DNA from: Syntrophobacterales bacterium
GTDB taxonomy: Bacteria; Desulfobacterota; Desulfobaccia; Desulfobaccales; 0-14-0-80-60-11
Assembly (NCBI GenBank): GCA_037388025.1
Contig: JARRKO010000006.1
Span: 57,067 to 121,066, forward strand
DNA: 64,000 nt
Direction of reading: 5' to 3'
Shown: positions 18,979-34,684 of the stretch, in pieces
Layout of the letters: each line of letters starts with the position of its first letter
Position numbering within the stretch: position 1 is the first letter of the stretch
Notes under the pieces: model-generated
Told to the model about the DNA's origin: nothing
The model's database searches: none
Seen by the model: the letters and a program-made list of their open reading frames with translations, nothing else
Program-made: the position numbers and the translations under genes

Positions 18979-19054
18979 GGGCCGTTAACTCAGTTGGTAG
19001 AGTATCTGCCTTTTAAGCAGAGAGTCGCTGGTTCGAATCCAGCACGGCCCACCA
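18979..19054 (+). tRNA. tRNA-Lys(TTT)
   Basis: GGGCCGT/ACGGCCC acceptor stem, TCTGC-CTTTTAA-GCAGA anticodon arm, GTTCGAATC T-loop, encoded CCA. Confidence 0.97.
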
Positions 19055-19074
19055 GATCCACAAGTTAATTTTGC

Positions 19075-19152
19075 GTCCCCATCGTCTAGCCTGGTCCAGG
19101 ACACCGGCCTTTCACGCCGGCGACACCGGTTCAAATCCGGTTGGGGACGCCA
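19075..19152 (+). tRNA. tRNA-Glu(TTC)
   Basis: GTCCCCA/TGGGGAC acceptor stem, CCGGC-CTTTCAC-GCCGG anticodon arm, GTTCAAATC T-loop, encoded CCA. Confidence 0.97.
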
Positions 19153-20749: not shown

Positions 20750-20892
20750 AACCTATGAACCTCTGTAATTTATATTGAGCAGATATTTCTCGATCTTCTC
20801 ACATGTTCACATTATATGGTAACCTTGGTGAAAATTCAAAAATTTGAGGCTGTGGTTTCTGGATAAGAGAATTAACACCAGGAGCACAACTC

Positions 20893-21942
20893 TCAGATAT
20901 CCCAAAAGCTCAACTGTCTCTTAGACTTGGGCGCCGGCTCTACCTTCATAAGAAACTTTTCGGCAATCATCTGTGCCAGCAGGGGAGCATTGCCCCCGGC
21001 CCGGTTGTTGATGATGACGTTGGCCATCATTCCCTGGTTAACAGCCTGCCACATAATGTCCAAGGTCTCTAGGATCATCTCCGGCCGCAGCATGCCCTCC
21101 ACTAGCTTGTCGAAGGGGAAGGCATTCACATAGGAGTCCTCATAGCGCATACCCAGAGGTGTGAGGAGCCTGATAACGCATTGCTTGCCTGCATTGAAGA
21201 ACCTGCCCCCGGCCTTGGTTAATTGTTTTCTCAAGGGCGGCAACCACGTCCAGTGGGAGAGAACTTGACCCACCCCGTGCTTCTCCAGCACCTCAAACAT
21301 AGGCTCCCGTAAATACAAATCAGTGCGTGATTCCAGATGATAGCGGCTATCCCTGGGGATCTTTTGGAAGAACTCATCTAAGGCGGCGACCATCTCGGTG
21401 ACCGGAGGTCTACCCTGCTTGGTCAGGTATTCTTGTTCAAATATGAAGCCGGTTAACGCCTGGCCCAGTAGTTCACCAGCCGGCTCATAGAACTGTCGGG
21501 TGAACACATCGCTATCGAGATATGTGGGGTTGTTCCGGTAGCTAGCCCCCCGCCTCAGCTTTGGGGCAGTAGTTATTTGGGGGACTTTAAGCAGGAGCGC
21601 ATCCCCGTCTCGAAGATGCTGTTGATAAGCTTTTAACACCCGATAATTCTGGGTGGGCTGGCCGTTTTCCTCAAGCAAGGGACGATAGAACGTGAAGTCG
21701 ATTTCCAAAATCGGGAAATGCTCAAAGTACTCTGCAACGCTATCTACCGGGAGGACTTTTTCGGTAAAGGTCTGGTCCCTTATCACCTTGGTGCGCTGCC
21801 TGATGCGACCATGATAGCGGTCTTCTGAATAAATCTGTCCCAGCCACCCTGCATACCGGTCACTGGCCGTGCCTATCTTGACTTGAGAGTGGAGGTGGCG
21901 GAACTTGAACTGCTCCCTATCGACGGACGGGGTAAGGGACAT
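20893..21942 (-). CDS. DUF72 domain protein
   Basis: IGTAS..Y.GW.G.IY, YFEHFPILEIDFTFYRP, LKVPQ, INNRAGGNAP; start uncertain (21942 or 21993). Confidence 0.85.
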   Translation of the reverse strand: MSLTPSVDREQFKFRHLHSQVKIGTASDRYAGWLGQIYSEDRYHGRIRQRTKVIRDQTFTEKVLPVDSVAEYFEHFPILEIDFTFYRPLLEENGQPTQNYRVLKAYQQHLRDGDALLLKVPQITTAPKLRRGASYRNNPTYLDSDVFTRQFYEPAGELLGQALTGFIFEQEYLTKQGRPPVTEMVAALDEFFQKIPRDSRYHLESRTDLYLREPMFEVLEKHGVGQVLSHWTWLPPLRKQLTKAGGRFFNAGKQCVIRLLTPLGMRYEDSYVNAFPFDKLVEGMLRPEMILETLDIMWQAVNQGMMANVIINNRAGGNAPLLAQMIAEKFLMKVEPAPKSKRQLSFWDI

Positions 21943-22352
21943 AGTACCAACAATGTAAACCAGGGACGATGGAATGCCAATGGTGGAAGACAAAAGGGAA
22001 CGAAACTGAGCTTAAGGTTCGGATATAAAGACGTTATCTGGAAAAAACGCCAAGGGCGACTAGTGACAAGTTATCGTGCGTTTCAGAATCCGATAATTTC
22101 TTCCTGATTCATGTCCTCTATTCTCCATAGCAGAGGTAGAAGTTGACGGTGTTTGGGCCATTTGTCAATCCCAAAGCAAGGCTAGTTCTTAATAATTTCC
22201 CTGATAAGAATACCATTTTACTCAACAAAGCGGACCATGACTTCAACAAAGCGAGCAATGACTAGTGAGTATAAGTGACCATATAAAAATGATCACTTTT
22301 GTCAATAGAACTATTAATATAAGGATATTATCCTTTATATACTCTATAAAAG

Positions 22353-22385
22353 AAATGTGCACAAAATGTGCACAAAATGTGCACA
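22353..22385. repeat. Three tandem copies of AAATGTGCACA
   Basis: Exact 11-bp unit x3, each containing the palindrome TGTGCACA. Confidence 0.85.
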
Positions 22386-22774
22386 TTTCAAATCCGGAAG
22401 GATATCCCCGGTAGAGCTAACTAAATCCCATCCCCTAAAAAACCTAAAGGCAGGGCCCCAGGGCCCTGCCATGTTATTCAACAAGAATAAAATTACAGAT
22501 GAAAGTAGCTGCTTCTATGTGGGTTCCGTCATAGCACTGCCACTGAATGCGGCCCTCGAAATCCCAGGTCCCGTTGTTAGCCGCCATGAGGGCAGTGGCG
22601 AAGACCTCAAAAGTGTCGGTAGGGGTTATGGGGTCGGTAGCCCAGCGGTTTTCCCTTGACTTTTCTGATAAAACCGGCAAGTTTTATCCTCCAAGAAGGC
22701 TTAGAGTCTGGAGGAAAATCTGGCAAGGAAACTACTTGTTTCTTTACATCAAATAATCAGGCAAAGAGAAATAT

Positions 22775-23032
22775 ATGAAAGATTGTGATGTCAAGCTTTA
22801 TGCCCTGAGCACGTGTATTCATTGTAAGAATGAAAAGGAATTTTTAAATCAATGTGGTATCAAATTCGATTGTGTTGATGTAGATACCATGGAGGTTGAA
22901 CTGAGATAAAAAATTTTGGAAGAAATCCGGAAAATAAATCCTGAGTGTGCTTTTCCAACCCTTGTTATCGGTGACAAGGTCGTCGTTGGTTTTAAGAAAG
23001 ATGAAATTAAGGAGATACTTGATATAAAATGA
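22775..23032 (+). pseudogene. Glutaredoxin-like protein with an internal TAA stop
   Basis: MKDCDVKLYALSTCIHCK...VELR*KILEEIRKINPECAFPTLVIGDKVVVGF; TAA at 22907-22909; ATGA overlap with the FTR gene. Confidence 0.85.
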
Positions 23033-23364
23033 ATGTTGACCAGCTCTATGAATTCTTAAAGGCCAAACAGGAATTGAAGGGCTATTATTTCAATAAAGAT
23101 AAGAAGCGGGTCTTCGATCTCTTAGAAGGTCTGTTGGTTAACAAGGAGCGGTACGGCTACATGTCCTGTCCCTGCAGGCTTTCCGCTGAAGACCCCGATT
23201 GGGATAAAGACATCATTTGCCCTTGTGAGTATCGTGCCGCGGATGTCGCTGAGTATGGCAGTTGTTACTGTAATCTTTATGTGTCTCAGGCCTGGAATGA
23301 AGAAAAGATTCCTCATGGTTATGTGCCGGAGCGGCGGCCTCTAGAAAAAAGATTCCCGCCGTAA
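23029..23364 (+). CDS. Ferredoxin:thioredoxin reductase catalytic-subunit-like protein
   Basis: CPCR, ICPC, CYC cluster/disulfide motifs. Confidence 0.92.
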   Translation: MNVDQLYEFLKAKQELKGYYFNKDKKRVFDLLEGLLVNKERYGYMSCPCRLSAEDPDWDKDIICPCEYRAADVAEYGSCYCNLYVSQAWNEEKIPHGYVPERRPLEKRFPP

Positions 23365-23422
23365 TCTTTCTCCCCGGCAATCTTTTCCAGCAAATCCCCC
23401 CCAGCGGCCTGACCGCGGCAGG

Positions 23423-23698
23423 TCATTCCCCGGGGCAATCATGCTCCAAAGCCTCTCCAAAAATTGCCCCGTGCACCGGGTCAATGCCCACCTTATCCCC
23501 ACAGTGTTGGCATTTGGCAGCCAGGGCCCCCCGAAAGGAGGTGGGGGGATAGCCGGTAACAATACGACTGATGGTAAAGCCCCCCAGGGTATGCCCCTTT
23601 TGGGCCGCAAAGGCCCGGGCCTCCCGGATGAGCTTTGCCCTGTTTTTTCCTAACTGAGACATGGTAATTACTTTCGGCCCTTTCAGAAATCCTGCCAT
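23423..23698 (-). CDS. Small hypothetical protein with a CxxC (zinc-ribbon-like) motif
   Basis: ATG at 23698 after GAGG RBS (MAGFLKGPK...); CQHC and a C-terminal Cys. Confidence 0.6.
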   Translation of the reverse strand: MAGFLKGPKVITMSQLGKNRAKLIREARAFAAQKGHTLGGFTISRIVTGYPPTSFRGALAAKCQHCGDKVGIDPVHGAIFGEALEHDCPGE

Positions 23699-24161
23699 AT
23701 TTTCCTCACCAGAACTGCACACACTTTTTACCAAATTATAACACGTCTTCACCTCTTTTAATCGGCAGAACTCCCGATTAGTAAACCGGGAAGGGGATAG
23801 GGTAGGGGGCCGCGACCAGGCAGCCCGGTCTTCCGGCCCGTGGATCCCTCCCCTGGCTCGACCTGAATGGGCACAGGCTGGCAAAAAATTTTATTTAAGT
23901 TCAGTTAGCTTTGCCTGAATGCTTGTCAGCAAGTATTTGTAAATACAATTATTATTAAGAAGCAGCCCCCATGTTCCGATCCACAGGCCGAGCCCCGTGG
24001 CACTTTCCGAATTGCACTGTGGTTAATGATAGTTACTTTTTGAAAAGGCCTGCGCTCCCCAAAGCCCCGACTCTTTTAGGAAGCCTTACTACCTCCCACG
24101 CAGGGGCCATTTAAGGTCTAGAAAGTGATGGCCGGGTCCTCTTCAGAGGAAGGAGAAACGT

Positions 24162-26474
24162 ATGGACACCTCAAATAACCCCGAAAAGATTCAGCCGGAA
24201 AAGTCTGCGGCCTCTAAACAGGCGACTCCAGAAGGGGAACAGCCCAAAGCCGGCGGCTGGTGGCGTCCGGTAATCCTCCTGGGGCTGGTAATAGCGGTGA
24301 TGGTGCTGGCCTGGGTCTTTGACCTGGGTATGTACTTGGAGTATACCAGGGACTGGATTCGGGGTCTCGGGTCCCTGGGTCCCCTGGTCTTTCTGGTTAT
24401 TTATATCATCGCCGTGGTCACCGCCCTTCCGGGCTCGGTCATCAGCATCGCGGCCGGAGCCCTCTTCGGTTCGGTTCTGGGGGTTATCCTGGTCAGCATC
24501 GGGGCCACCGTCGGCGCCAGTCTGGCTTTTCTGATCTCCCGCTATTTCGCCCGGGAGTCCGTGGTTAACTGGCTGGGGAAGAGCGAGAAATTTCAGCGCC
24601 TGGATCGCCTGACCGAAGAACAAGGCGCCATCATCGTGGCCCTGACGCGGCTGGTCCCTCTTTTTCCTTTTAATCTCCTTAACTACGGTTTCGGGCTGAC
24701 CCGGGTGCCTTTCTGGACCTATGTCTTTTGGTCTTGGTTGTGCATGCTGCCCGGCACCATCCTGTACGTGGTGGGTGCGGACGCGGTGACCAAGGCCCTG
24801 GCCCGACGCCATGTTCCCTGGGTGTTGGTGGTGGCCTTTTTGGCGGCCCTGGTTTTCCTGGTAATCATCGTTAGGTTGGCCAAACGCCGGCTGAGCACCG
24901 CAGAAATGACCGCGGCCACGGCTGGAATGTCTTCCGGTCCAGCAGAGCCCATGACCCTGCCTGAAATGACCCCCCTGGATGAACACAATCAGGAGCTCAT
25001 GGCCAATACTCATCCGGGAGATTGGGTAAATCCGGAGCCCGCGCCGGTCTATAACCTGATGGTCGTCGGGGCCGGCACCGCCGGGCTGGTCTCCGCGGCC
25101 GGGGCCGCCGGCCTGGGGGCCAAGGTGGCCCTGGTGGAACGCCACCTCATGGGCGGCGATTGCCTCAATTACGGCTGCGTGCCTTCCAAGGCGGTTATCC
25201 GCTCCTCCCGGGTGTATGAAGATATTCGTCAGGCCGGCTCTTTGGGCGTGGGGGTGCCGGCAGGGGTGGCGGTGGATTTCCCTGCGGTTATGGCCCGCAT
25301 GCGGCGTCTGCGGGCCGGCATCAGCCACCATGACTCAGCCCAGCGCTTCCGGGACCTGGGGGTGGATGTCTTTTTAGGGCAAGGCCGCTTCACCGGCCCC
25401 GACACCGTGGAGGTGGACGGCAAGACCTTGCGCTTTAAAAAAGCCGTGATCGCCACGGGCGGCAGAGCCGTGCATCCCTCTATCCCAGGTCTGGCCGAGG
25501 CCGGCTACCTCACCAATGAGACGGTGTTTTCCCTGACCGAACGGCCCCGCCGTCTATTGGTCATGGGCGGCGGTCCCCTCGGCTGCGAGTTCGCCCAGGC
25601 CTTTCAGCGTCTGGGCTGCCAGGTGACCCTGCTGCACAAGTACTCCCATATCATGAACCGGGAGGACCCGGACGCCGCCGAAATTATCCAGAATACTTTT
25701 CTCCGGGAAGGCCTCCACCTGATCCTTAACGCCAAGCCCACCCGGGTGGTAAAAACCGAGTCGGGCAAAGCGGTTTCCTATGAGCAGAACGGCACGGAAC
25801 AGGTCATCGAGGTGGACGAGATTTTGATCGGCGCCGGCCGGGCTCCCAACGTGGAGGGCCTCAACCTGGAAGCCGCCGGGGTCAAATATGAAGGGGGCAA
25901 GGGCCGGGGCGTCCTGGTAAACGACAAGCTCCAGACCTCCAACCCCAACATTTACGCAGCCGGGGACATTTGTCTGCCTTACCAGTTCACCCACCTGGCC
26001 GACGCCTCAGCCCGCATCGTCATCCAAAACGCCCTGTTCCTCGGGCGCCGGAAGCTGAGCGCCCTGACCATCCCCTGGTGCACCTATACCGACCCGGAAG
26101 TGGCCCACGTGGGCCTCTCAGAACAAACGGCCCAAAAACAAGGGATTGCTTACCAGGTATTTGTGAAACCTTTGCGGGAAGTGGATCGGGCCATCCTGGA
26201 CGGAGAGGAGGACGGGTTCGTCAAGATCCTGGTCAAAGAAGGCAAGGACCAAATTCTGGGCGCCACCATCGTGGCCCGGCATGCCGGGGAAATGATCAGC
26301 GAGGTGACCTGTGCCATGGCGGGGAAAGTGGGCCTGGGAGCCCTGGCTTACGTTATTCATCCTTACCCGACCCAGGCGGAGGCGATCCGGGCCGTGGGCG
26401 ATCTCTACAACCGCACCCGCCTGACACCCTTCGTGAAAAATCTGTTCACCAAGTTCCTGGCCTGGCGCCGGTGA
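24162..26474 (+). CDS. VTT/SNARE-associated (TVP38/DedA) membrane domain fused to a MerA/Lpd-like FAD-dependent disulfide oxidoreductase
   Basis: N-terminal RLVPLFPFNLLNY; GAGTAG, GGDCLNYGCVPSK, YAAGD, HPYPT. Confidence 0.92.
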   Translation: MDTSNNPEKIQPEKSAASKQATPEGEQPKAGGWWRPVILLGLVIAVMVLAWVFDLGMYLEYTRDWIRGLGSLGPLVFLVIYIIAVVTALPGSVISIAAGALFGSVLGVILVSIGATVGASLAFLISRYFARESVVNWLGKSEKFQRLDRLTEEQGAIIVALTRLVPLFPFNLLNYGFGLTRVPFWTYVFWSWLCMLPGTILYVVGADAVTKALARRHVPWVLVVAFLAALVFLVIIVRLAKRRLSTAEMTAATAGMSSGPAEPMTLPEMTPLDEHNQELMANTHPGDWVNPEPAPVYNLMVVGAGTAGLVSAAGAAGLGAKVALVERHLMGGDCLNYGCVPSKAVIRSSRVYEDIRQAGSLGVGVPAGVAVDFPAVMARMRRLRAGISHHDSAQRFRDLGVDVFLGQGRFTGPDTVEVDGKTLRFKKAVIATGGRAVHPSIPGLAEAGYLTNETVFSLTERPRRLLVMGGGPLGCEFAQAFQRLGCQVTLLHKYSHIMNREDPDAAEIIQNTFLREGLHLILNAKPTRVVKTESGKAVSYEQNGTEQVIEVDEILIGAGRAPNVEGLNLEAAGVKYEGGKGRGVLVNDKLQTSNPNIYAAGDICLPYQFTHLADASARIVIQNALFLGRRKLSALTIPWCTYTDPEVAHVGLSEQTAQKQGIAYQVFVKPLREVDRAILDGEEDGFVKILVKEGKDQILGATIVARHAGEMISEVTCAMAGKVGLGALAYVIHPYPTQAEAIRAVGDLYNRTRLTPFVKNLFTKFLAWRR

Positions 26475-26641: not shown

Positions 26642-26719
26642 GTTCTTTTTGAAATGACGCATGCGGATGGGCCGACCCAGGTGTCGGCCCAAAAATTAAA
26701 CAGGCGGACACGCGGGTCC

Positions 26720-26803
26720 GCTAACTGCTAACTGCTAACTGCTGACTGCTGACTGCTGACTGTTGACTGTTGACTGCTGATAACTGATCACTGACCACTG
26801 GCC
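26720..26803. repeat. Graded heptamer tandem array (about 12 units)
   Basis: GCTAACT x3, GCTGACT x3, GTTGACT x2, GCTGATA, ACTGATC, ACTGACC, ACTGGCC; runs into the 3' end of the metK-like gene. Confidence 0.88.
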
Positions 26804-27993
26804 TTCAAGAGTTCCACCTTGTCAGTGGCCTCCCAGGGCAAAGAGAGGTCATCCCGCCCCATCTGGCCGTAAACCGCCAGTAGTCGGTAAAATTTGCCCT
26901 GGTGAAGAGACGGCAGGTTGCGGCAGTCAAAGGTCTTGAGAATGCCGGCCAGACGGAAATCGAAATGCTTCTTCACCAAGTCCGTCAGATCTTTATCAGA
27001 GCGGGTGCCGGTACCGAAGGTGTCCACCAGGATGCTCACCGGCCGGGCCAAACCGATGGTGTAGCAGAGCTGCACCTCACACTCCGAAGCCAGGCCGGCG
27101 GCCACTAGATTCTTGGCGGCATAGCGGGCGGCGTAGGCTCCCACCCGGTCGATGCGCAAGGCGTCTTTGCCGCTTAAGGCGCTGCCGCTGTGGCGGCCGA
27201 ATTCCCCGTAGGTGTCCACGTCGCTTTTGCGGCCGGTGAGTCCGGAATGCACTGCCGGCCCGCCCACCAGGAGGTGTTCCACCGGGTTGATGAAGATTTT
27301 GGTCTTTTTGTCCGGTTGCATCTCTCCATCGGCAAACACCGGTTTGATGATGACCTCCATGATGTCATCCTGCACCCGTTTGGAGGACACCGAATTGACT
27401 GTCGCTTTGGTGGAGCTGACAATTACCGTAATGCTGTGGAAACGGTAAGGGCTGCGGTTCCGGTACTCCACGCCCACCTGGGTTTTGGCGTCGGGCGACA
27501 GGTAGGGGATCAGCTTTTCTTTCCTGACCTGATCGATCCGGCGGGCCAGCTTGTGGGCCGTCCAGACGGGCAGGGGCATAAGGCTGGGCGTGTGATTGCA
27601 GGCGAAGCCGAAGACGTTGGCGTGCTGGCGCACATGAATCTTATCGATTTCCTGGTCGGTCAGTTGCTGCTCATTGAAATAGAGGTCCAGATCAGGAGGA
27701 TATTCCTGCAGGCTGGTGAGAATGCTGCAGGTCCGGGCGTCGAAATCCGGCTCCAGATACCCGATTTTACTGATGGTCTTGCGGGCGATATAGGACACAT
27801 CTCCCTTGACTTCCGCCGCAAACCGGGCGGCAATGAACAGAATGGAGGTGGCCACGGCGCACTCAGCCCTCACCCGGGCGTAGGGGTCCAGCTCAAGAAA
27901 ATGGTCGATGATGGCATCGCTCACCTGGTCGCATAGCTTGTCCGGGTGGCCCTCGGTGACGGATTCGGAAGTAAACACATAGTCTTTCTTCAT
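26788..27993 (-). CDS. Divergent methionine adenosyltransferase (MetK) paralogue
   Basis: FTSESVTEGHPDK, PDAK, GLTGRK, SGKD, YAARYAAKN are present; GAGDQG and the GGG signature are altered. Confidence 0.9.
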   Translation of the reverse strand: MKKDYVFTSESVTEGHPDKLCDQVSDAIIDHFLELDPYARVRAECAVATSILFIAARFAAEVKGDVSYIARKTISKIGYLEPDFDARTCSILTSLQEYPPDLDLYFNEQQLTDQEIDKIHVRQHANVFGFACNHTPSLMPLPVWTAHKLARRIDQVRKEKLIPYLSPDAKTQVGVEYRNRSPYRFHSITVIVSSTKATVNSVSSKRVQDDIMEVIIKPVFADGEMQPDKKTKIFINPVEHLLVGGPAVHSGLTGRKSDVDTYGEFGRHSGSALSGKDALRIDRVGAYAARYAAKNLVAAGLASECEVQLCYTIGLARPVSILVDTFGTGTRSDKDLTDLVKKHFDFRLAGILKTFDCRNLPSLHQGKFYRLLAVYGQMGRDDLSLPWEATDKVELLKASGQ

Positions 27994-30900
27994 GAGCTGA
28001 TCCTTGTACTCCGAGGTTCAGGCCTTGCTTCTTCTTGCTCAGCAGGGGGACGTTTGGTAGCCTCATTCACCACCAGGGGCAGGAGACTGCCGGCGGCGAT
28101 GACCAGGCCGTCCACAAGGCCGATGGGGGTGAGGCCCAGAAGACTTCTCAGACCCGGGAGCAGAATGGTCAGCCCCTGCAGGGCCAGGGAGCCACCCACG
28201 GCCCACCTTAGATAGGGATTGGGGGGGAGGCTTTCCTGGCTGAAAAGGCCGAGGTGCTCCGACCGGCAACTCACGGCATGAAGCAGTTGGCCCGTGGTCA
28301 GAGTATGAAACGCCAGGGTGCTGGACTGGGCTCCCAGGCCATAGCGCCAGATCCCGTAACCAAAGGCTCCCATGGACCCGGTGGTCATGACCGTGGATTC
28401 ATAGGCCATGCGCTGGTAGTCCTGTCTGGTGAAAATGGGCGCCTGCGGGTCTCGGGGCGGACGCGCCAAGATATCGGGTTCCGGCTCTTCCAGGGCTAGG
28501 GCCAATCCGGGGAAAATGTCGCTGATCAGGTTGATCCACAGAAGTTGGGCGGCCGTGATGGGGGAGCCCAATCCCACTGCCAGGGCCGTAAAAGTGATCA
28601 TGACTTCGCTCAGATTGGTGGCCAGGAAAAAATGTACTGATTTGCGGATGTTGTTGTATGTAGTGCGTCCGTCCCGGATGGCCACGATGAGAGTGTCCAG
28701 GTTGTCTTCTTCCAGGACCACGTCGGCCACCTCCCGGGCGATATCGGTGCCGGTGCTGCCCATGGCGATGCCCACGTTTGCGGCTTTGAGGGCCGGGCCG
28801 TCATTGATGCCGTCCCCCGTCATGGCGATGACGCGGCCGGATTTCTGGAGAGCCTGCACGATTTCCAGCTTGTGAGAGGGGCTTACCCGGGCAAAGACAT
28901 GAACCCGCTGGGCCAGGGCCCGCAGGGCCTCCGGCTCGATTTGGGACAGGAAAGAGGAATCCAGGATTTCCAGGGGCCGGCCCTGGCTGAGTTGCAATTC
29001 CTTACCAATGGCATAGGCGGTGGGGCCTTGATCCCCGGTGATCATCACGGTGTCGATGCCGGCTCCCTGAATGGCGGCAATGGCTTCTTTCACCCCGTCG
29101 CGAATGGGGTCAATCATACCCACCATGCCCAGCCAGGTGAGGCCGTTGGGCGCCCCAGTCTCTTCCGTGACTTCGCCTTCGCCGTAGGCCACGCCCAGGA
29201 CCCGCTGGGCTTCTCCGGCCATGTGCTCGTTTTCCGCTTCCACGGCCTGCTTTTCCACCTCGGTGAACGGCAGGCGCCGGCCGCCTTTGACATGCCAAGC
29301 GCACAGGGCCAGAACCTCGGTGGGGCTGCCCTTGAGGGCTAAAAAACGCCCTTTCTTGGGGTGTTGGTGCAGGGTGCCCATGTATTGCCGGCCTTCGGCG
29401 CGGTGATTGGTGCGGAGCAGAGGATAACGGCTCCGGAGCTTCTCCACGTCTACCTTCGCCTCCAGCGCCAGTTCCACCAAGGCATTCTCCGTGGGTGTGC
29501 CGCGGAGGGCATAGGTGCCGTTCTCCCGGTAAATCTCGGTTTCATTACATAGTACCGAGACTTCCAGGAGTTGCTTCAACTCCCGGTAGCTGAGAGGGGG
29601 AAGTTTTTCCGGACCCGAGAAATGGCCGTTATCCACCCGGAAGGACTGCATCCCCGCATAGATCTGGACCACGGTCATTTGGTTCCGGGTAATGGTGCCG
29701 GTCTTATCGAGGCAGACGGTTTGCACCGAACCCAGGGTTTCCACGGCGTTAAGGCGGCGGATGAGCACATGGTGGTGGCGCATATCTCGGATGCCCAGAG
29801 CCAGAGTGGTGGTGGCCGCCGCCGGCAGTCCCTCGGGCACCGCCGCGGCGGCCAAGCAGATGGCATTGCGCAGCATGGTCAGGAAGGAAAAACCCCGCCA
29901 CAGGCCGATGACAAACACCACCCCGCAGACACCGCAGCAGACCACCACCAGTTGATCCCCCACCGTGGTGAGTTGTCGCTCCAAGGGCGTTTCCGGAGTG
30001 GCGGCTTCCCCCACCAGGGTTTGGATCAGGCCGATTTCGGTGTAGCTGCCGGTGGCCACCACCACCGCCAGCCCCTCGCCGCCGGTGACCAGGGTCCCCA
30101 TGAAGATCATGTTCAGCCGGTCAGCCAGGGGAATATTGTCCTTCTGGAGAGCCTGGGTGGATTTCAGCACCGGCAGGCTTTCCCCGGTCAAGGCGGATTC
30201 GTCCACGGACAGGTGATGGGCCGACACCAGCCGGGCGTCCGCCGGGACGTAGCTTCCGGGGCGCAGCACCACCAGTTCACCCGGCACCACTTCCTCCGCA
30301 GAAATCTCTTGTAACTTCCCCTCCCGCATCACCAGGGCCACCGGGCGGACCAGGGTCTGGAGGGAGCGGATGATTTTTTCCGACTCAGTTTCGGTCTTGT
30401 AGCCGATGGCGGCGTTGAGCACCACCACTCCCATGATCAGGATGGCGTCCACCAGGCCGCCGGTGACCACCGACAAGCCGGCGGCCGCCCCCAGGAGGGC
30501 CACGGGCAGGGACTTGAACTGGTCAAAGAAAATCTCCCAGCCGGGGCGAGGCTCAGACTCCGGCAGGAGGTTGGGGCCATAGGTTTTCAGGTTGTTTGCC
30601 ACCTGGAAGGCAGTCAGGCCTTGATCCGGGGAAGTTTCCCACCGGGCCAGCACCGCTTCAGGCTCCCACAGGTGCCAGGGTTCCAGGGGTTGGTCTGCGG
30701 CTCCGGCAAACAAATATTTGATACCGCGGCGGGCGAGGGAGGATGGTCCAGAGCCGGCCTCCGGCCTGAGGGTCGGCCGGGCCGGTTCTTCGTGGGGGTC
30801 GTCCTGGCCGAGGTTGGTTTGATACTCGGTGACAATCCCGGTAATCAGGGCGGCAATGGTCTCTGGAGTGTTGTCGGTATTGTAGCACACCAGCAAATTG

Positions 30901-31094
30901 CCGGTGAGGGGGTTGGCCGACACCCGGCTGATATCCTTGATGCGGCCCAGCCGGGATTCCAGCAGCCTCTTGAGGCTTTCAGAGTGGCGTAGTCCGGGTA
31001 CCCGATAACGGGCTCTCCCCGCCACCGCAGTGTGAATCGCCTCAACCATAGAAAAGCTTTCTGAGCACGAGACCCCGCCAGGCGGCGCCCTCAT
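27990..31094 (-). CDS. P2A-type (Ca2+-like) cation-transporting P-type ATPase with an N-terminal HMA_2-like domain
   Basis: TGES, AVPEGL, DKTGT, MITGD, GDGINDGPAL, NLSE, QLLWINLISD; N-terminal HTAVAGRARYRV...SANPLTGNLLVCY; start 31094 or 31049. Confidence 0.93.
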   Translation of the reverse strand: MRAPPGGVSCSESFSMVEAIHTAVAGRARYRVPGLRHSESLKRLLESRLGRIKDISRVSANPLTGNLLVCYNTDNTPETIAALITGIVTEYQTNLGQDDPHEEPARPTLRPEAGSGPSSLARRGIKYLFAGAADQPLEPWHLWEPEAVLARWETSPDQGLTAFQVANNLKTYGPNLLPESEPRPGWEIFFDQFKSLPVALLGAAAGLSVVTGGLVDAILIMGVVVLNAAIGYKTETESEKIIRSLQTLVRPVALVMREGKLQEISAEEVVPGELVVLRPGSYVPADARLVSAHHLSVDESALTGESLPVLKSTQALQKDNIPLADRLNMIFMGTLVTGGEGLAVVVATGSYTEIGLIQTLVGEAATPETPLERQLTTVGDQLVVVCCGVCGVVFVIGLWRGFSFLTMLRNAICLAAAAVPEGLPAAATTTLALGIRDMRHHHVLIRRLNAVETLGSVQTVCLDKTGTITRNQMTVVQIYAGMQSFRVDNGHFSGPEKLPPLSYRELKQLLEVSVLCNETEIYRENGTYALRGTPTENALVELALEAKVDVEKLRSRYPLLRTNHRAEGRQYMGTLHQHPKKGRFLALKGSPTEVLALCAWHVKGGRRLPFTEVEKQAVEAENEHMAGEAQRVLGVAYGEGEVTEETGAPNGLTWLGMVGMIDPIRDGVKEAIAAIQGAGIDTVMITGDQGPTAYAIGKELQLSQGRPLEILDSSFLSQIEPEALRALAQRVHVFARVSPSHKLEIVQALQKSGRVIAMTGDGINDGPALKAANVGIAMGSTGTDIAREVADVVLEEDNLDTLIVAIRDGRTTYNNIRKSVHFFLATNLSEVMITFTALAVGLGSPITAAQLLWINLISDIFPGLALALEEPEPDILARPPRDPQAPIFTRQDYQRMAYESTVMTTGSMGAFGYGIWRYGLGAQSSTLAFHTLTTGQLLHAVSCRSEHLGLFSQESLPPNPYLRWAVGGSLALQGLTILLPGLRSLLGLTPIGLVDGLVIAAGSLLPLVVNEATKRPPAEQEEARPEPRSTRISS

Positions 31095-31113
31095 CTGCTT
31101 CTAATAGTTAGGA

Positions 31114-31776
31114 TTACTCTGATTTACTCTTGGGGGCCTTCTTTTCGGGCGTGGCCTCGGCGCCGGTCCCCGAGGGCCTCTCACCTTTGGGCATCATCGC
31201 GGCGACCACGTCTTTGAGCCCACCCACCGCGGTCACCAGGACATCCCGCACCCCGGTGATGGCGGTCTGGCTCAAGGAGCTAGCCGCTTCCATGGCCCCG
31301 GTTACCGCCGCTTTGGTTGCGCTGCCCACATTGCTGCCGGCCTGGCCGGCTGCCTCCATGACCCCGGAAACCGCGCTCCGGGCCACCAGGGCCACGTCGC
31401 CGCCCACCTCGCTGGCGCCGCGTACCGCGCCCTTCACCAGGTTGGTGGCGGCCTGGTTCACGTCGCCGCCCACGTCGCCCACGGCCAGGAGGATGCCCTT
31501 GGCCACACCTTTGGTGCTTGCCACCACATCGCCCCCCACTTCCTGGGCAGCTTCGATGGCCCCTTTAAACACATCCTTGCTGACGTTGATGGTTTCCGTA
31601 GCCACGGAGCCCGTGGTTTTCAGCGCGTCAGTCACCGTCTGCCGGGTAACATTGACAATCTCGGTTTCAATCTCTTGGATTCCCTTGAGACTGCCGACGA
31701 TGCCGTCTTTGACTTTGGTGCCGGCCTTACCTAAGGATTCCCCGGCCCCGCCTTTTTCTTTGCTTTCAGGTGCCAT
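31114..31776 (-). CDS. Hypothetical protein with 8 x 22-residue Gly/Ala/Val amphipathic repeats
   Basis: GGAGGT RBS before ATG 31776; EVGGDV-type motifs recur every 22 aa. Confidence 0.85.
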   Translation of the reverse strand: MAPESKEKGGAGESLGKAGTKVKDGIVGSLKGIQEIETEIVNVTRQTVTDALKTTGSVATETINVSKDVFKGAIEAAQEVGGDVVASTKGVAKGILLAVGDVGGDVNQAATNLVKGAVRGASEVGGDVALVARSAVSGVMEAAGQAGSNVGSATKAAVTGAMEAASSLSQTAITGVRDVLVTAVGGLKDVVAAMMPKGERPSGTGAEATPEKKAPKSKSE

Positions 31777-31879
31777 TGCGACCTCCCGGACAAATGTTCT
31801 TGCTGCTGAGTGCTCCCCGGTCTGAGGGGCCGAAGCTGGTTCTCCGGCCACCCAGGAACTCTGGGGAAATCTGGTTGGT

Positions 31880-32173
31880 TTACAAGTACTTACCCAAGTA
31901 GGACGCCAACTCCATGGAATTGACTTCCGGGAAAAAAGTACCCATGGCGTCCTTCAGGGCCCACAACGAGCGTAGGGACGTCACCTCCGCTTGGTCAAAA
32001 CGCATCTGCACTGCACCCTGTTGCGGGTCCACCTCGACGCTGGTAATTCCCTGAATTGCCGAAAACCGTGTCTGAAATTCTTCCGCCAGAGATTCATTTC
32101 CTTTGAGCTTGGCCACGGACAAACTCAGATAACCGGGTTCTGCCTGGATAACTTCGATGCCTTCAATGTTCAT
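31880..32173 (-). CDS. Degenerate HMA_2-like domain protein
   Basis: IQAEPGYLSL...IQGITSVEVDPQQGAVQMRFD aligns with neighbouring HMA_2 domains; likely ATG at 32173. Confidence 0.7.
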   Translation of the reverse strand: MNIEGIEVIQAEPGYLSLSVAKLKGNESLAEEFQTRFSAIQGITSVEVDPQQGAVQMRFDQAEVTSLRSLWALKDAMGTFFPEVNSMELASYLGKYL

Positions 32174-32615
32174 GTTCCACCCTGTGTTGAGGTTATGAGG
32201 TTCCGCGTCAGAAACACCAGGGCCGGAAGGCAATCAAGGCAGCGCCGTTGGCAGCTTGATTATACGGGTTTTCCGGCCGGCTCACCACTAACGGTTAGCG
32301 ATATATATTTTAATATATATATGAAATTATACCTTTCCAGAGAGACCAAAACTTTTTGTGTGGAATATGGGTTAAGGGCTACGACCCTGAATAACACGGG
32401 CCTACCTCCCTGTCCCCCTTCTCCGGCGCAGTTGCCTCATGTCCTTTGCGGAGCTAAAGAAGTAACTCGCCTCATTATAACTGCTATCGCAATGGGACCC
32501 CGAAAGGACATTAAAGAGTAAAATTAACAAAAATTTAATAATTACAACATGAACTTATAACTTTCAGGGTTGATCATTAATACTAACAAATTCGTTGGAA
32601 AGGGAACTTCCTCGT

Positions 32616-32987
32616 ATGACTGCCAGTTCCTCTTATGTCCATGCCTTGGAAGGACGGCTGCGCATTAAAATACCCGAAGTAAAAGGCGCTCCCCTCAAAG
32701 CCTGTGAGGTCGAGCGTCATTTGATCCAATCCCCCGGGGTGGATGAGGTTTCAGCCAACCCCACCACCGGCAGTGTTTTAATCCTCTATAATTCCCGCCT
32801 CATCGGCCAAGAAGAACTTCTCTTTGCACTTCAAGAAATCGGCTGTATGCAAGGATGTCAGCCCCAAGCTGCTGGGACCGTCGATACGGCTTCCAGTTCA
32901 GCAGGCACACTTGCCAAAGTGACCACCGCCGTGGCCTCCACCCTGATGGAAGCGGCTCTATCCCGCTTGGTGATCGCCCTTATTTAA
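32616..32987 (+). CDS. HMA_2 domain protein
   Basis: VHALEGRLRIKIP...PGVDEVSANPTTGSVLILYN; hydrophobic C-terminal helix. Confidence 0.85.
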   Translation: MTASSSYVHALEGRLRIKIPEVKGAPLKACEVERHLIQSPGVDEVSANPTTGSVLILYNSRLIGQEELLFALQEIGCMQGCQPQAAGTVDTASSSAGTLAKVTTAVASTLMEAALSRLVIALI

Positions 32988-33293
32988 TATGGCCTGGACC
33001 GCCGATTCCGACATTCTCTATCTGATCTTTCAGGATGTTTGTTTACCCGAGGGAAACCGCGAGGGGGGCAGGACGTGCGCCCCGGAGCCTCGGCTGGCCG
33101 GTCTTCATGGTAATGGTCAGGTAAGATGGTCGCTTTTGCGACATAAACGAGAGATTTTTCGAATGGCTTTTAAAAGAGACTGCTAAGTTAATGCCGGCTC
33201 TGCTTTACCAGGCACAGCCCGGATGTCTTCCTTTCTTTCCCTGCAATTCCCGCTTTAACATCCTCTAGTTAGTCCCACCCGGGGCTCGCCTCA

Positions 33294-33902
33294 TTATGAA
33301 CCAGGCTTGTGTTTGGGTCCCTCTGGCTTCAGGTCTGGCTTGGCCTTGCTATTGCGCAGGTTCAGCATGACGAAAGCGCTGAAACCGAACCACAAGTAAT
33401 CATACCAGGCTGGGAAGGTTCTTTGTTTTGAGGTCCACAGACTGCGAAACCCCAGAAACAGCAGGGCCAAGGGTGCCAGAAGCTTGAGGTCAAGTCCTCC
33501 CGTGAGCTCTGCCACCTTGGCATTAAGAGCTGCCAGGGATTCCACCGAAGAGATGGTGGGCTGGGGCACGCCGCCGGTGGCCTGGGGCACGCCGCCGGTG
33601 GCCAGGTGCCCCATCAGGGACTCGGCTTCCATCTCAAAAGCCTCTTTTTCAATTTCCGGAAACAGGGCGGCAAACCCATCGGTGAGAGCCGTAAAGGCCC
33701 CGGCTGCCAAAAGCTTCGCCAGGTCATAATAGATAAGAACACTGCCGGTAAGCGGTTTGGCTTCCACCCGCTCTATCCCCGACACTTGCCCCAGGATGTC
33801 CTCGGCCTTTTGGGCAAAGACCGGATCACCCTTGACCTTGTCCACCTTCAGACGCAGACGGCCGGGTATCGCATGGACCACAGTAATGCCCTTCACCGCC
33901 AT
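33294..33902 (-). CDS. HMA_2 domain protein with C-terminal membrane segments (FezC-like architecture)
   Basis: VHAIPGRLRLKV...TGSVLIYYD; LDLKLLAPLALLFLG...PAWYDYLWFGF. Confidence 0.85.
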   Translation of the reverse strand: MAVKGITVVHAIPGRLRLKVDKVKGDPVFAQKAEDILGQVSGIERVEAKPLTGSVLIYYDLAKLLAAGAFTALTDGFAALFPEIEKEAFEMEAESLMGHLATGGVPQATGGVPQPTISSVESLAALNAKVAELTGGLDLKLLAPLALLFLGFRSLWTSKQRTFPAWYDYLWFGFSAFVMLNLRNSKAKPDLKPEGPKHKPGS

Positions 33903-33931
33903 TTTCCCCTTCCTGTGGAAACTACTGGAAG

Positions 33932-34207
33932 TTACTGTTTGCCCTTGGCCGCCTTTTCAGCCGCCGCCACTTCAGCGGCATGCTCCGCCTTACATTCGGC
34001 CATGAGATCGCTGATTTGTTCTCCGGCCTCGGCGGCATACTCTTTGGCGGTTTCGGCCAGGGCCAGATAGCCCTTGATAAGGGTCTTGGCCAGCGGACGG
34101 GAGACGGCGGCCACGGCAGGCAGCACGATGGGCGCTGCCAGGGCCACTCCCAAAACTACGAGAATGCTGGGAACTGCACCCTTAAAACCATCGTCGAATG
34201 TTGCCAT
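33932..34207 (-). CDS. DUF5132-like small membrane protein
   Basis: Hydrophobic LAAPIVLP, RPLAKTLIKG, AEAGEQISDLMAE; AGGAGG RBS. Confidence 0.82.
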   Translation of the reverse strand: MATFDDGFKGAVPSILVVLGVALAAPIVLPAVAAVSRPLAKTLIKGYLALAETAKEYAAEAGEQISDLMAECKAEHAAEVAAAEKAAKGKQ

Positions 34208-34318
34208 GGCATTCCTCCTTGGGGGAGATTAGCATAAAGGGGAATATATCAAGTAACCTCATAAAATACTAACAAAATCCTCATTTTTTATTAATGGATA
34301 TATATCATTTTGCGATAA

Positions 34319-34684
34319 ATGGACTTCAAAAAACAAATGCTGCATTCCTTCTGGCAAGGGATTTTAAAAGTATTTGTCCTGCATCAGGCGGCCCAGGGTC
34401 CCATCTATGGCGGTAAATTGAAGAAGCAGTTACAAGACTGGGGCTATGACATCAGTCCGGGCAGCCTGTATCCTTTGCTGCATGCCTTCGAAAAGGGCCA
34501 CCTGTTTCACAGTCGCGTGAAAATTTTTAAAGGCCGGGCCCGCAAGTACTATGAAATCACCGACCAGGGGCGCGCCGTTCTGGCTGAAATGCAACAAGAA
34601 TTGGACGTCATCATGACCAAACTGTTGTCAGCCGGCCGGCAGACCTCTGGTAAAAACCATCCCCAGCCGCGCTCCCACAACTAG
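34319..34684 (+). CDS. PadR family transcriptional regulator
   Basis: SPGSLYPLLH, RKYYEITDQGR; divergent from the DUF5132-like gene. Confidence 0.92.
   Translation: MDFKKQMLHSFWQGILKVFVLHQAAQGPIYGGKLKKQLQDWGYDISPGSLYPLLHAFEKGHLFHSRVKIFKGRARKYYEITDQGRAVLAEMQQELDVIMTKLLSAGRQTSGKNHPQPRSHN

What the first reader, a model, noticed from the sequence alone, without database searches (positions are those of the whole stretch)
26788..34684. Ferrosome-like cluster rebuilt around a Ca-type pump, an amphipathic repeat protein and a repurposed MetK: candidate new metal-storage organelle system
Seen: PadR, a DUF5132-like membrane protein, three stand-alone HMA_2-like proteins (one with FezC-like TM segments), an 8x22-aa amphipathic protein, an HMA_2-P2A ATPase, and a MetK paralogue overlapping the ATPase stop (ATGA). 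Established: ferrosome (fez) clusters combine small membrane proteins and HMA-like FezC with a P1B-6 ATPase to build iron-phosphate compartments; cyanobacterial calcyanin joins a basic HMA-like (CoBaHMA) domain to Gly-rich helices and marks intracellular CaCO3 formation. Neither, as far as I know, includes a P2A pump or MetK. Inference: a lipid-bounded compartment loaded with Ca/Mn/Mg or Fe, with phosphate supplied by the MetK-like enzyme.
Basis: partly seen in the sequence, partly recalled or inferred. Interest (0 to 1): 0.9.

Follow-up and report, generated by a model that had tools for sequence, protein, structure and literature searches.

The report
Calcium-type pump paired with remodelled MetK
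A calcium-type membrane pump with an unusual basic "HMA-like" head is encoded, in bacteria of many phyla, directly before a copy of the SAM-synthetase gene that has lost its methionine-binding residues, together with small membrane proteins also seen beside iron- and calcium-mineral genes; this looks like an undescribed calcium/phosphate-handling module.

Summary
All eight genes are at the stated coordinates, and the ATPase stop overlaps the MetK-like start in ATGA.

The cluster is not a chance neighbourhood:
- Of 49 related loci whose ATPase carries the N-terminal HMA_2/CoBaHMA domain and that have at least 1.3 kb downstream, 45 have the MetK paralogue next, always on the same strand. Of 12 control loci without that domain, 0 do.
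- Among 41 relatives, the same 24 genomes hold both genes and 17 hold neither.

The MetK paralogues form their own clade (58 of 58). They keep the catalytic His and the triphosphate/metal ligands. All four methionine ligands are replaced in 55 of 55: E55 to R/H/T, Q98 to hydrophobic residues, D238 to H, K269 to R.

The pump has SERCA-like Ca-site residues. pstSCAB-phoU abuts the cluster in 7 loci and a Na/Ca-exchanger gene in 6.

It is not a fez cluster, because it has no P1B-6 pump, but its accessory architecture parallels fez and the Microcystis ccyA neighbourhood. My best reading is a Ca2+/(poly)phosphate-handling membrane module. Whether it builds a closed compartment is untested.

The parts
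26788..27993 (-). MetK-derived paralogue (401 aa): triphosphate/metal ligands kept, methionine ligands replaced
   Evidence: Pfam and TIGR01034 matches. A housekeeping metK lies elsewhere in the genome. Residue comparison with solved MetK and with 55 paralogues plus 5 housekeeping copies. Separate clade.
27990..31094 (-). P2A-type (Ca2+-type) P-type ATPase with an N-terminal CoBaHMA/HMA_2 domain (residues about 13-89)
   Evidence: Ion-site and H/R-x-R signature conservation. 4-nt ATGA overlap with the next gene.
31114..31776 (-). Helical 22-residue repeat protein (220 aa from the probable start; the ORF is open up to 31851)
   Evidence: Periodicity. AF2 model of 8 helices, pLDDT 79.9. Foldseek finds only designed helical repeat proteins. 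39 homologue clusters. Start.
31880..32233 (-). 117-aa HMA_2 protein without the His/Arg signature
   Evidence: Pfam 31.8 bits. Sequence read. Found by tblastn in only 2 of 80 other loci (L003, L045).
32595..32987 (+). 130-aa CoBaHMA protein with a hydrophobic C-terminal tail, on the opposite strand
   Evidence: Pfam 41.1 bits. Hydrophobic segment 112-130. A counterpart of about 123 aa lies convergent to the MetK-like gene in many loci.
33294..33902 (-). 202-aa CoBaHMA + C-terminal helical hairpin protein (full PF19991 architecture)
   Evidence: Pfam 66 bits in two stretches. AF2 model. HMA-fold matches. The hairpin module is present in 29 of 33 well-flanked loci.
33932..34207 (-). DUF5132 small membrane protein (N-terminal hydrophobic segment, then an amphipathic helix)
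   Evidence: Pfam 39.2 bits. Hydrophobic segment 7-40. Present in 32 of 33 well-flanked loci.
34319..34684 (+). PadR-family regulator, divergent; local to this lineage and not a conserved part
   Evidence: Pfam 61.5 bits. Found in 2 of 33 well-flanked loci. No inverted repeat in the intergenic region.
26704..26721 (-). Terminator-like hairpin just after the MetK-like stop
   Evidence: Consensus scan. The overall count of such sites is not above the shuffles, so only the position is suggestive.

Best explanation
This is a conserved, multi-phylum operon. Its core is a P2A (Ca2+-type) P-type ATPase with an N-terminal CoBaHMA domain. That domain is an HMA-like fold in which the metal-binding cysteines are replaced by a His + R-x-R-x-R/K basic face. 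The pump gene is translationally coupled to a MetK-derived enzyme.

Shown:
- The pump keeps the SERCA-like Ca-site residues.
- The MetK-like protein keeps the catalytic His, the Mg/K ligands and the triphosphate-binding Lys/Arg residues.
- The MetK-like protein has swapped every methionine ligand, and the two acidic ones have become Arg and His.
- DUF5132 and CoBaHMA-hairpin membrane proteins almost always accompany the pair.
- Phosphate-uptake (pstSCAB-phoU) and Na/Ca-exchanger genes repeatedly sit beside the cluster.

Inferred:
- The pump moves Ca2+ (possibly Mn2+) out of the cytoplasm, across the cell membrane or into an internal membrane compartment.
- The MetK-like enzyme no longer makes SAM. 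It acts on ATP/tripolyphosphate or a longer or other anionic phospho-ligand at an enlarged basic pocket.
- The basic CoBaHMA faces and the small membrane proteins bind an anionic partner (polyphosphate, phosphate mineral or anionic lipid) and so place or gate the pump.

Taken together it is a Ca2+/(poly)phosphate-handling module. It is a calcium-side sibling of the fez (iron-phosphate) and ccyA-neighbourhood (Ca-carbonate) gene sets.
For: Gene content.

Co-occurrence anchored on the pump:
- 60 of 79 scored loci have the HMA_2 head.
- 45 of the 49 with at least 1.3 kb downstream have the MetK paralogue next; 47 of 47 are on the same strand; 18 have a 4-nt overlap.
- In the 33 well-flanked loci, DUF5132 is present in 32 and the hairpin module in 29.
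- In 12 control loci without the head, 0 of 12 have any of these.

Co-occurrence anchored on both genes in relatives: 24 of 41 genomes have both and 17 have neither; the genes are adjacent in 23 of the 24. A duplicated pair exists in Chlorogloeopsis.

Paralogy: 8 of 10 genomes reached through loci hold a 540-628-bit metK plus paralogue(s) of 364-404 bits. The clade holds 58 of 58 paralogues, support 0.81.

Residues (n = 55): H14 51, D16 54, E42 54, R244 55, K245 55, K265 55, D271 54. Changed: E55 to R 47/H 7, Q98 kept in 0, D238 to H 55, K269 to R 55. The roles of these residues come from passages of PMC1282579, PMC3853416 and PMC7271947.

Pump: SPCA1/LMCA1 are the best solved relatives (481 bits). 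E421 54/55, N827 54, E830 54, N855 54, S/T858 55, D859 55; head H21 52, R27 54, R29 55.

Context: pst/phoU in 7 loci in different orientations, CaCA in 6, PhoH2 in 4, and none in the 12 controls.

A second DUF5132 x2 + CoBaHMA-P1B ATPase cluster in the same genome shows that these accessory parts are pump adaptors.
Against: - No biochemical or expression data: no RNA run was listed.
- Ion specificity rests on residues only, and the pump scores below the NCBIfam Ca-ATPase equivalog cut-offs.
- The pst/phoU and CaCA neighbours occur in only 7 and 6 of about 60 loci, and not in this window, whose neighbour is a Na/H exchanger.
- Four distant CoBaHMA pumps (38-43% identity) lack the MetK-like gene, so it is an add-on rather than part of the minimal system.
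- Adenine contacts in the MetK-like protein are only partly kept (F230 in 22 of 55), so even ATP binding is not certain.
- The loci are related genomes and are not independent. ORFs were called mechanically.
- The CoBaHMA paper (Gaschignard 2024) could not be read and may already list the pump fusion.
Confidence: 0.5

Rival explanations
1. Ferrosome-like organelle. The cluster builds a lipid-bounded intracellular compartment that is loaded with Ca (plus phosphate) by the pump. DUF5132, the CoBaHMA-hairpin protein and the repeat protein act as membrane-shaping or coat proteins.
For: Parallels with fez parts: an R-rich head on the pump, an HMA + 2-helix membrane protein, and a small hydrophobic protein whose family consensus carries GxxxGxG. 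The same trio lies next to calcyanin in Microcystis. There are phosphate and Ca neighbours, and PHA_gran_rgn genes in 5 gammaproteobacterial loci. Chlorogloeopsis, which carries two copies of the pair, is described with Ca-rich polyphosphate inclusions and iACC (passages).
Against: Nothing here shows a compartment. P2A pumps normally act in the cell membrane. No homology to FezA/FezC themselves was tested. The cluster is not next to ccyA in Chlorogloeopsis as far as the ORF list shows. The repeat protein is predicted soluble and is present in only 16 of 33 well-flanked loci.
Confidence: 0.2
2. Ordinary Ca2+/Mn2+ efflux at the cell membrane. The CoBaHMA head and small proteins only regulate the pump through anionic lipids. 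The MetK-like protein is a regulatory or sensor subunit (binding ATP, SAM or K+) rather than an enzyme of phosphate chemistry.
For: The ion site is identical to that of plain P2A relatives without the head. Every relative also has ordinary P2 pumps. CoBaHMA has been proposed to interact with anionic lipids (passage; abstract of Gaschignard 2024 recalled). Translational coupling fits a stoichiometric partner.
Against: A mere sensor would not need to keep the catalytic His and all triphosphate/metal ligands at 51-55 of 55. This reading does not explain the repeated, independently arranged pstSCAB-phoU adjacency.
Confidence: 0.22
3. The paralogue is simply a second, working SAM synthetase that supplies SAM locally.
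For: It scores above the TIGR01034 equivalog cut-off. All sources name the clade methionine adenosyltransferase.
Against: All four methionine ligands and the side-chain contact I102 are replaced in 55 of 55 paralogues, and the GAGDQG motif is lost. These ligands are reported as conserved across 2963 MATs (passage). No methyltransferase or radical-SAM gene is among the conserved neighbours.
Confidence: 0.05

Closest known systems
Ferrosome (fez) gene clusters (FezB P1B-6 ATPase, FezC, FezA); passages of bioRxiv 10.1101/2020.01.10.902569 read
   Same: A P-type ATPase with an N-terminal R-x-R(-x-R) motif. A protein with an HMA-like domain plus two membrane helices. Small hydrophobic proteins. The described cargo is an iron-phosphate mineral, and here there are phosphate-gene neighbours.
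   Different: The pump here is P2A with Ca-type residues and 10-TM N/C modules, not P1B-6 (no D[Y/F]SCA or HNxxT motifs). A MetK-derived enzyme and a 22-mer helical repeat protein are added. No FeoA, DUF2202 or DUF4405 genes were seen. Homology of DUF5132 to FezA, or of the 202-aa protein to FezC, was not tested.
Genomic neighbourhood of ccyA (calcyanin) in Microcystis aeruginosa PCC 7806; passages of bioRxiv 10.1101/2024.07.07.602159 read
   Same: DUF5132 protein, stand-alone CoBaHMA protein and CoBaHMA + C-terminal helical hairpin protein encoded side by side. A Ca-related context.
   Different: No calcyanin (GlyZip x3) was recognised here. That neighbourhood is described with a Ca2+/H+ exchanger, not with a CoBaHMA-headed P2A pump or a MetK paralogue.
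Bacterial/Golgi P2A Ca2+ pumps LMCA1 (Listeria) and SPCA1 (solved structures 6zhf, 8iwp)
   Same: Best solved relatives (481 bits). DKTGT, PEGL, and M5/M6 Asn/Glu/Asp ligands are conserved.
   Different: There is an extra N-terminal CoBaHMA domain and linker of about 140 residues. M5 keeps the SERCA-like N and E that SPCA1 lacks in the alignment. The gene is always coupled to accessory genes.
Methionine adenosyltransferase MetK (E. coli 1RG9/1P7L; human MAT2A)
   Same: Three-domain fold signatures. GHPDK with the catalytic His. Mg/K ligands, the R244-E42 pair, and K245, K265 and D271.
   Different: E55, Q98, D238, K269 and I102 are replaced and GAGDQG is lost. There is a 7-residue insertion (query 360-366). 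Two clade-specific invariant Cys (C21, C45). The genes form a separate clade with a stem of 0.66 substitutions per site.

Membership tests
Ferrosome (fez) cluster | FezB: P1B-6 ATPase with D[Y/F]SCA and HNxxT transmembrane motifs | tested here: not met
   The pump is P2A-type (Cation_ATPase_N/C, PEGL). Seven further CoBaHMA-headed ATPases were scanned (six in the fetched loci, one in the own genome). Three carry CPC, none carries D[Y/F]SCA, and the single HNxxT string lies just after DKTGT rather than in a TM motif.
Ferrosome (fez) cluster | R-rich motif (RxR / RxRxR) at the N-terminus of the pump and of accessory proteins | tested here: met
   R27 in 54/55 and R29 in 55/55 of the pumps. R15 in 146/148 and R17 in 147/148 of all HMA_2 domains collected.
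Ferrosome (fez) cluster | FezC-like protein: HMA domain + two membrane helices; FezA-like hydrophobic GxxxG protein | tested here: inconclusive
   The architecture matches. The DUF5132 family consensus has GxxxGxG but the window's copy does not. No Fez sequence was available for a direct comparison.
Ferrosome (fez) cluster | Makes membrane-bounded iron-phosphate granules | not testable with these tools
   Needs microscopy and genetics.
P2A Ca2+-ATPase (SERCA/PMR1/LMCA1 kind) | DKTGT, PEGL in M4, N/E in M5, N/(S,T)/D in M6 | tested here: met
   Conserved in 54-55 of 55 orthologues. Best solved relatives are SPCA1 and LMCA1.
P2A Ca2+-ATPase (SERCA/PMR1/LMCA1 kind) | Score above the NCBIfam equivalog cut-off | tested here: not met
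   TIGR01522 601.3 against 798.3; TIGR01116 529.9 against 703.4.
Methionine adenosyltransferase (MetK) | Three MetK domains, GHPD catalytic His, triphosphate/metal ligands | tested here: met
Methionine adenosyltransferase (MetK) | Methionine ligands E55, Q98, D238, K269 (E. coli numbering; roles from PMC3853416 and PMC1282579 passages) | tested here: not met
   All four are replaced in 55 of 55 paralogues. The same is seen in the alignment to solved MetK.
CoBaHMA / Pfam HMA_2 (PF19991) | Pfam match over cut-off; conserved His before strand beta1 and basic residues in beta1; extra strand beta0 | tested here: met
   Four matches of 31.8-66 bits. The H-x4-R-x-R-x-K/R signature is present in three of the four (the 117-aa protein lacks it). 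The AF2 model has beta0 before the HMA core, and the best folds are MerP, CopZ and KipI 2kwa.
Calcyanin (ccyA) system | Protein with a triplicated GlyZip C-terminal domain | not tested
   No profile for calcyanin was run. None was recognised by eye in the window or in L019.

The most novel reading that the evidence does not exclude
A widespread, so far unrecognised bacterial calcium-(poly)phosphate storage or mobilisation system. In it, a duplicated SAM synthetase has been converted into a tri/polyphosphate-processing enzyme that works hand in hand with a CoBaHMA-gated Ca2+ pump. CoBaHMA domains would be (poly)phosphate-binding modules that tie P-type pumps to mineral or polyphosphate bodies. 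That would be a common principle behind ferrosomes, cyanobacterial Ca-carbonate inclusions and this system.
Probability: 0.2. Interest if true: 0.9.

Novelty: new variant of a known kind. Interest (0 to 1): 0.78.

Why it matters
- It gives the orphan CoBaHMA and DUF5132 families a firm, testable partner: P-type pumps of two different classes, found in one genome.
- It links the ferrosome and calcyanin gene sets through shared parts.
- It exposes a large clade of 'methionine adenosyltransferases' in public databases that almost certainly do not bind methionine. At least 120 clusters lie at 64% identity or more, and every source name given calls them SAM synthetase.
- A MetK fold retooled for another substrate and welded to a cation pump would be new enzymology.
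- If the phosphate link holds, it opens a handle on how bacteria co-manage Ca2+ and polyphosphate or phosphate minerals.
- Cultured carriers exist for experiments: Chlorogloeopsis fritschii PCC 6912, Nitrosospira sp. Nsp14, Rivularia sp. UHCC 0363 and Vacuolonema iberomarrocanum LEGE 07170 (record titles), and probably Hydrococcus rivularis NIES-593 (paralogue-like hit only).

Tried and rejected
1. Pump-MetK fusion proteins. Long ORFs in L038 and L067 looked like fusions but lie in a different frame from the ATPase ORF. L066 holds an odd truncated ATPase+MetK ORF that I did not resolve. I claim no Rosetta-stone fusion.

2. Selenocysteine. '1 TGA inside' was flagged for the paralogues of G013 and G025. 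Translation showed it is only the terminal stop.

3. Complex prediction of the MetK paralogue with residues 1-100 of the pump returned 'no answer'. This is evidence neither way.

4. Expression. The look-up of sequencing runs listed no RNA holder.

5. Riboswitches. An Rfam gathering search of the whole window found only two tRNAs.

6. PadR operator. No inverted repeat was found in 34190-34330. The promoter and terminator scans are at chance level overall.

7. Fold of the repeat protein. Foldseek against the PDB gave only de novo designed helical repeats, so there is no functional lead. Pfam 'Senescence' at E 0.0036 is below its cut-off. The Atlas gave unnamed clusters only.

8. A replacement enzyme in the four distant loci without the MetK-like gene: none was recognised in the ORF lists.

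9. ccyA next to the cluster in Chlorogloeopsis: not seen in the ORF list, but no profile was run.

10. Literature:
- CoBaHMA: 5 papers.
- DUF5132: 1 paper.
- PF19991/HMA_2: only the Microcystis preprint is relevant.
- 'methionine adenosyltransferase / paralog / P-type ATPase / gene neighborhood': 18 papers, none relevant by listing.
- 'metK / Ca2+-ATPase / gene cluster / biomineralization': 13 papers, none relevant by listing.
- The Aravind-group preprint on bacterial P-type ATPase neighbourhoods mentions antiporters and permeases but not MetK in the passages seen. Its supplementary figure could not be seen.
- Gaschignard et al. 2024 is not held. I only recall its abstract, so the pump fusion itself may be in print.

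Full report
**What is there.** The minus strand of window 26788-34207 encodes, in transcription order:
- a DUF5132 protein (33932-34207);
- a 202-aa HMA_2 protein (33294-33902);
- a 117-aa HMA_2 protein (31880-32233);
- a repeat protein (31114-31851);
- a 1034-aa P-type ATPase (27990-31094);
- a 401-aa MetK-like protein (26788-27993).

A 130-aa HMA_2 protein (32595-32987) and a PadR regulator (34319-34684) lie on the plus strand.

The ATPase carries HMA_2 at residues 13-89, in front of a complete P2-type body (Cation_ATPase_N, E1-E2_ATPase, Hydrolase, Cation_ATPase_C). It scores best against the PMR1-type and SERCA-type Ca-ATPase models, 601 and 530 bits, both under their equivalog cut-offs. 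The ATPase stop and the MetK-like start share ATGA. A terminator-like hairpin follows the MetK-like stop (suggestive by position only). No Rfam family other than two distant tRNAs is present.

**The MetK is a paralogue with a rebuilt pocket.** The genome holds a second metK on another contig, at 563 bits against TIGR01034; this copy scores 375. The same two-level pattern appears in 8 of 10 other genomes reached through related loci: 540-628 bits for one copy and 364-404 for the other(s). Two metagenome-assembled genomes showed only a low-scoring copy, at 367 and 313.5 bits.

In a tree of 58 paralogues and 9 housekeeping copies, all 58 paralogues form one clade. Its support is 0.81 and its stem is 0.66 substitutions per site.

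I compared 55 paralogues with 5 housekeeping copies and with solved MetK structures. Numbers are E. coli positions.

| Kept in the paralogues (of 55) | Count |
|---|---|
| Catalytic His14 | 51 |
| Asp16 | 54 |
| Glu42 | 54 |
| Lys165 | 44 |
| Arg244, Lys245, Lys265 | 55 each |
| Asp271 | 54 |

| Changed in the paralogues (of 55) | Result |
|---|---|
| Glu55 | Arg 47, His 7, Thr 1 |
| Gln98 | kept in 0 (Leu/Met/His/Tyr and others) |
| Asp238 | His 55 |
| Lys269 | Arg 55 |
| Ile102 | variable polar residues |
| GAGDQG motif | lost |
| Insertion | 7 residues at query 360-366 |

Passages of PMC3853416 and PMC1282579 assign Glu55 and Asp238 to the methionine amino group, Gln98 and Lys269 to its carboxylate, Ile102 to its side chain, and His14 to catalysis. 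A passage of PMC7271947 lists the human equivalents among 12 catalytic residues conserved over 2963 MAT sequences.

So the clade keeps the triphosphate/metal half of the active site and has replaced the whole methionine half. The two acidic ligands have been turned into basic ones. Two cysteines (query 21 and 45, beside the metal ligands) are invariant in the clade but not in housekeeping MetK; I cannot explain them. Public sources name these proteins methionine adenosyltransferase.

**The pump.** The best solved relatives are human SPCA1 and Listeria LMCA1 (481 bits); SERCA1a follows at 391 bits. In 55 orthologues with the N-terminal head, the ion-site positions are held: Glu in PEGL (54), Asn and Glu in M5 (54 each), Asn (54), Ser/Thr (55) and Asp (55) in M6, and Gln in M8 (47). 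They are the same as in 14 relatives aligned without that head. That is a Ca2+-type site; Mn2+ cannot be excluded.

The head carries His21 (52 of 55), Arg27 (54) and Arg29 (55). Across 148 HMA_2 domains collected from the loci, the pattern H-x3-G-R-x-R-x-K/R is nearly invariant. This is the CoBaHMA signature of a conserved His in an extra strand beta0 plus basic residues in beta1/beta2 (passages of PMC8890360). It is also the 'R-rich motif' reported for FezB and FezC (passages).

An AF2 model of the 202-aa protein (pLDDT 79.5) shows beta0-beta1-alpha-beta-beta-alpha, followed by helices and a terminal helical hairpin. Its N-terminal domain matches MerP, CopZ, pump metal-binding domains and KipI 2kwa (TM-score on target 0.5-0.7, E 0.01-0.1).

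**The repeat protein.** The 22-residue period is clear. With 26 homologues, AF2 predicts eight helices of 19-25 residues at pLDDT 79.9 and pTM 0.70. Foldseek finds only designed helical repeat proteins. The helices are amphipathic and no membrane segment is predicted. The family is small: 39 clusters among 5.8 billion proteins, three of them fused to a ROS/MucR domain. The Atlas holds the protein from its second Met.

**Is the neighbourhood conserved?** A scan of one genome per species with the pump kept the best 80 loci. One locus (L077) had no scorable ATPase ORF. Results:
- Of the other 79 loci, 60 have the HMA_2 head on the ATPase ORF.
- Of the 49 of these with at least 1.3 kb downstream, 45 have the MetK paralogue as the next gene.
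- The four exceptions are the most distant pumps (38-43% identity).
- The MetK paralogue is on the pump's strand in 47 of 47 loci, and 18 share the 4-nt overlap.
- In the 33 loci with at least 3 kb upstream and 5 kb downstream: DUF5132 in 32, a separate HMA_2 protein in 26, the hairpin module in 29, the repeat protein in 16, PadR in 2.
- Twelve loci whose pump lacks the head have none of these (0 of 12 each).

By record titles, the carriers include Desulfobacterota families, Nitrospirota, many cyanobacteria, Gamma-, Beta- and Alphaproteobacteria and Binatia. In cyanobacteria, DUF5132 is fused to the hairpin module in one protein. This ties those two parts together.

A test anchored on both genes in 41 relatives of this genome gave a perfect match. 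The same 24 genomes hold a paralogue (59-100% identity) and an orthologous pump (56-100%), and 17 hold neither. The two genes are adjacent on one contig and strand in 23; in the last genome they sit at two contig ends. These genomes are kin and not independent. Chlorogloeopsis fritschii PCC 6912 has two paralogues, each next to its own headed pump.

**Hints to function from wider context.** The full pstS-pstC-pstA-pstB-phoU phosphate-uptake set, or part of it, directly abuts the cluster in 7 loci (L008, L009, L012, L023, L047, L050, L056). They come from Nitrospirota, three Desulfobacterota families and Gammaproteobacteria. The set lies upstream and divergent in some, downstream on the same strand in one, and upstream on the same strand in others, which argues for repeated recruitment.

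A Na_Ca_ex (CaCA) gene lies beside the cluster in 6 loci, PIN-PhoH in 4, and PHA_gran_rgn in 5 gammaproteobacterial loci. None of these is in the 12 control loci. In this window the neighbours are instead a DedA/VTT-fused flavoprotein oxidoreductase, a cold-shock-like protein (read from its sequence) and a Na/H exchanger; phoU lies on other contigs.

**A second cluster in the same genome.** Contig C24 holds two DUF5132 genes next to a 737-aa P1B-type (CPC) ATPase with the same CoBaHMA head. So DUF5132 and CoBaHMA accompany pumps of different classes. They look like general pump adaptors rather than parts tied to one metal.

**Comparison with what is known.** Fez clusters are defined by a P1B-6 pump; that feature was tested and not met. 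The shared features are the R-rich head, an HMA+hairpin membrane protein and small hydrophobic proteins. The DUF5132 family consensus has GxxxGxG, but the window's copy does not.

The closest published neighbourhood by parts is that of ccyA in Microcystis: CoBaHMA with a DUF454-like hairpin, CoBaHMA, and DUF5132, at positions -3, -2 and -1 (passages). Neither description, in the passages I saw, includes a P2A pump with a CoBaHMA head or a MetK paralogue. Five full-text searches found no paper on that pairing. The paper that defines CoBaHMA is not held. From its abstract, which I only recall, fusions to membrane transport proteins are mentioned, so the headed pump may be known. The obligatory MetK-like partner, as far as I could search, is not.

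**Most likely mechanism.**
- Shown: a Ca-type pump, a MetK-derived protein with an intact triphosphate/metal site and a basic, methionine-free pocket, basic-faced CoBaHMA domains on the pump and on membrane-anchored partners, and recurrent phosphate and Ca neighbours.
- Inferred: the pump exports Ca2+ from the cytoplasm. The MetK-like enzyme acts on ATP-derived tripolyphosphate or a longer or other anionic phospho-compound. CoBaHMA faces bind an anionic partner and thereby position or gate the pump.

Two physiological versions fit. The other is removal of Ca2+ released when polyphosphate is mobilised under phosphate limitation. I cannot separate them here. I rate the general Ca/(poly)phosphate-module reading at about 0.5, a true membrane-bounded compartment at about 0.2, plain regulated efflux with a non-catalytic MetK-like subunit at about 0.2, and a normal second SAM synthetase at about 0.05.

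**Limits.** There are no expression data and the complex prediction gave no answer. ORFs were called mechanically and families assigned by profiles built here. Ion and substrate specificities are read from residues. Supplementary files of papers were closed and may hold neighbourhood figures that bear on novelty.

**Verdict.** This is a new variant of the pump-plus-CoBaHMA cluster kind, with an unexpected neofunctionalised MetK. Interest 0.78.

Noticed in passing
G000 contig C24 (locus L093 6230-9223): A second cluster in the same genome: two DUF5132 genes (103 and 81 aa) next to a 737-aa P1B-type ATPase with a CPC motif and the same CoBaHMA head. A pyridine-nucleotide-disulfide oxidoreductase and a Na/H-exchanger-like gene lie nearby.
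   Followed up: partly
G000 contigs C9 and C26 (L094 5071-5820; L095 3862-4881): Two further proteins (249 and 339 aa) with a C-terminal HMA_2 domain and no other recognised family.
   Followed up: no
window 24162-26474 (+): A 770-aa fusion of a VTT/DedA membrane domain with a pyridine-nucleotide-disulfide oxidoreductase, directly beside the cluster. tblastn finds similar sequence in L014 (42%) and L016 (23%) only.
   Followed up: partly
proteins P0004, P0018, P0031: Some homologues of the 22-mer repeat protein are fused to a ROS/MucR zinc-finger domain (PF05443). This is odd for a presumed scaffold protein.
   Followed up: no
MetK paralogue residues 21 and 45 (window 26788-27993): Two cysteines beside the metal ligands are invariant in 33 of 33 aligned paralogues (54 and 53 of 55 in the larger set) but are Ala/Thr in most housekeeping MetK. 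This could be a new metal site or a redox switch.
   Followed up: no
L044, L046, L048, L058, L064 (gammaproteobacterial loci): A PHA_gran_rgn (putative polyhydroxyalkanoate-granule) gene lies within the cluster neighbourhood in 5 loci, and universal stress protein genes in 7.
   Followed up: partly
L006-L051 (12 loci), e.g. L047 7178-7501: A roughly 105-aa double zinc-ribbon protein (InsA-like ribbon) recurs next to the convergent small CoBaHMA gene. DUF3562 recurs after the MetK-like gene in 7 loci.
   Followed up: partly
L066 10010-12664: In a Richelia MAG, one 884-aa ORF joins a truncated pump to part of the MetK paralogue. It could be a decayed copy or an assembly artefact.
   Followed up: no
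window 39843-42317 (+): An 824-aa fusion of a beta-lactamase-family domain with exo-beta-N-acetylmuramidase NamZ. It lies next to a DUF4015 glycosyl hydrolase and a polysaccharide deacetylase, which looks like a cell-wall recycling block.
   Followed up: no
window 20001-24000 and 54001-58000: Two stretches of low G+C (0.42-0.49 against 0.50-0.64 elsewhere). Two tRNA genes at 18979-19149 precede the first, which could mark an island.
   Followed up: no
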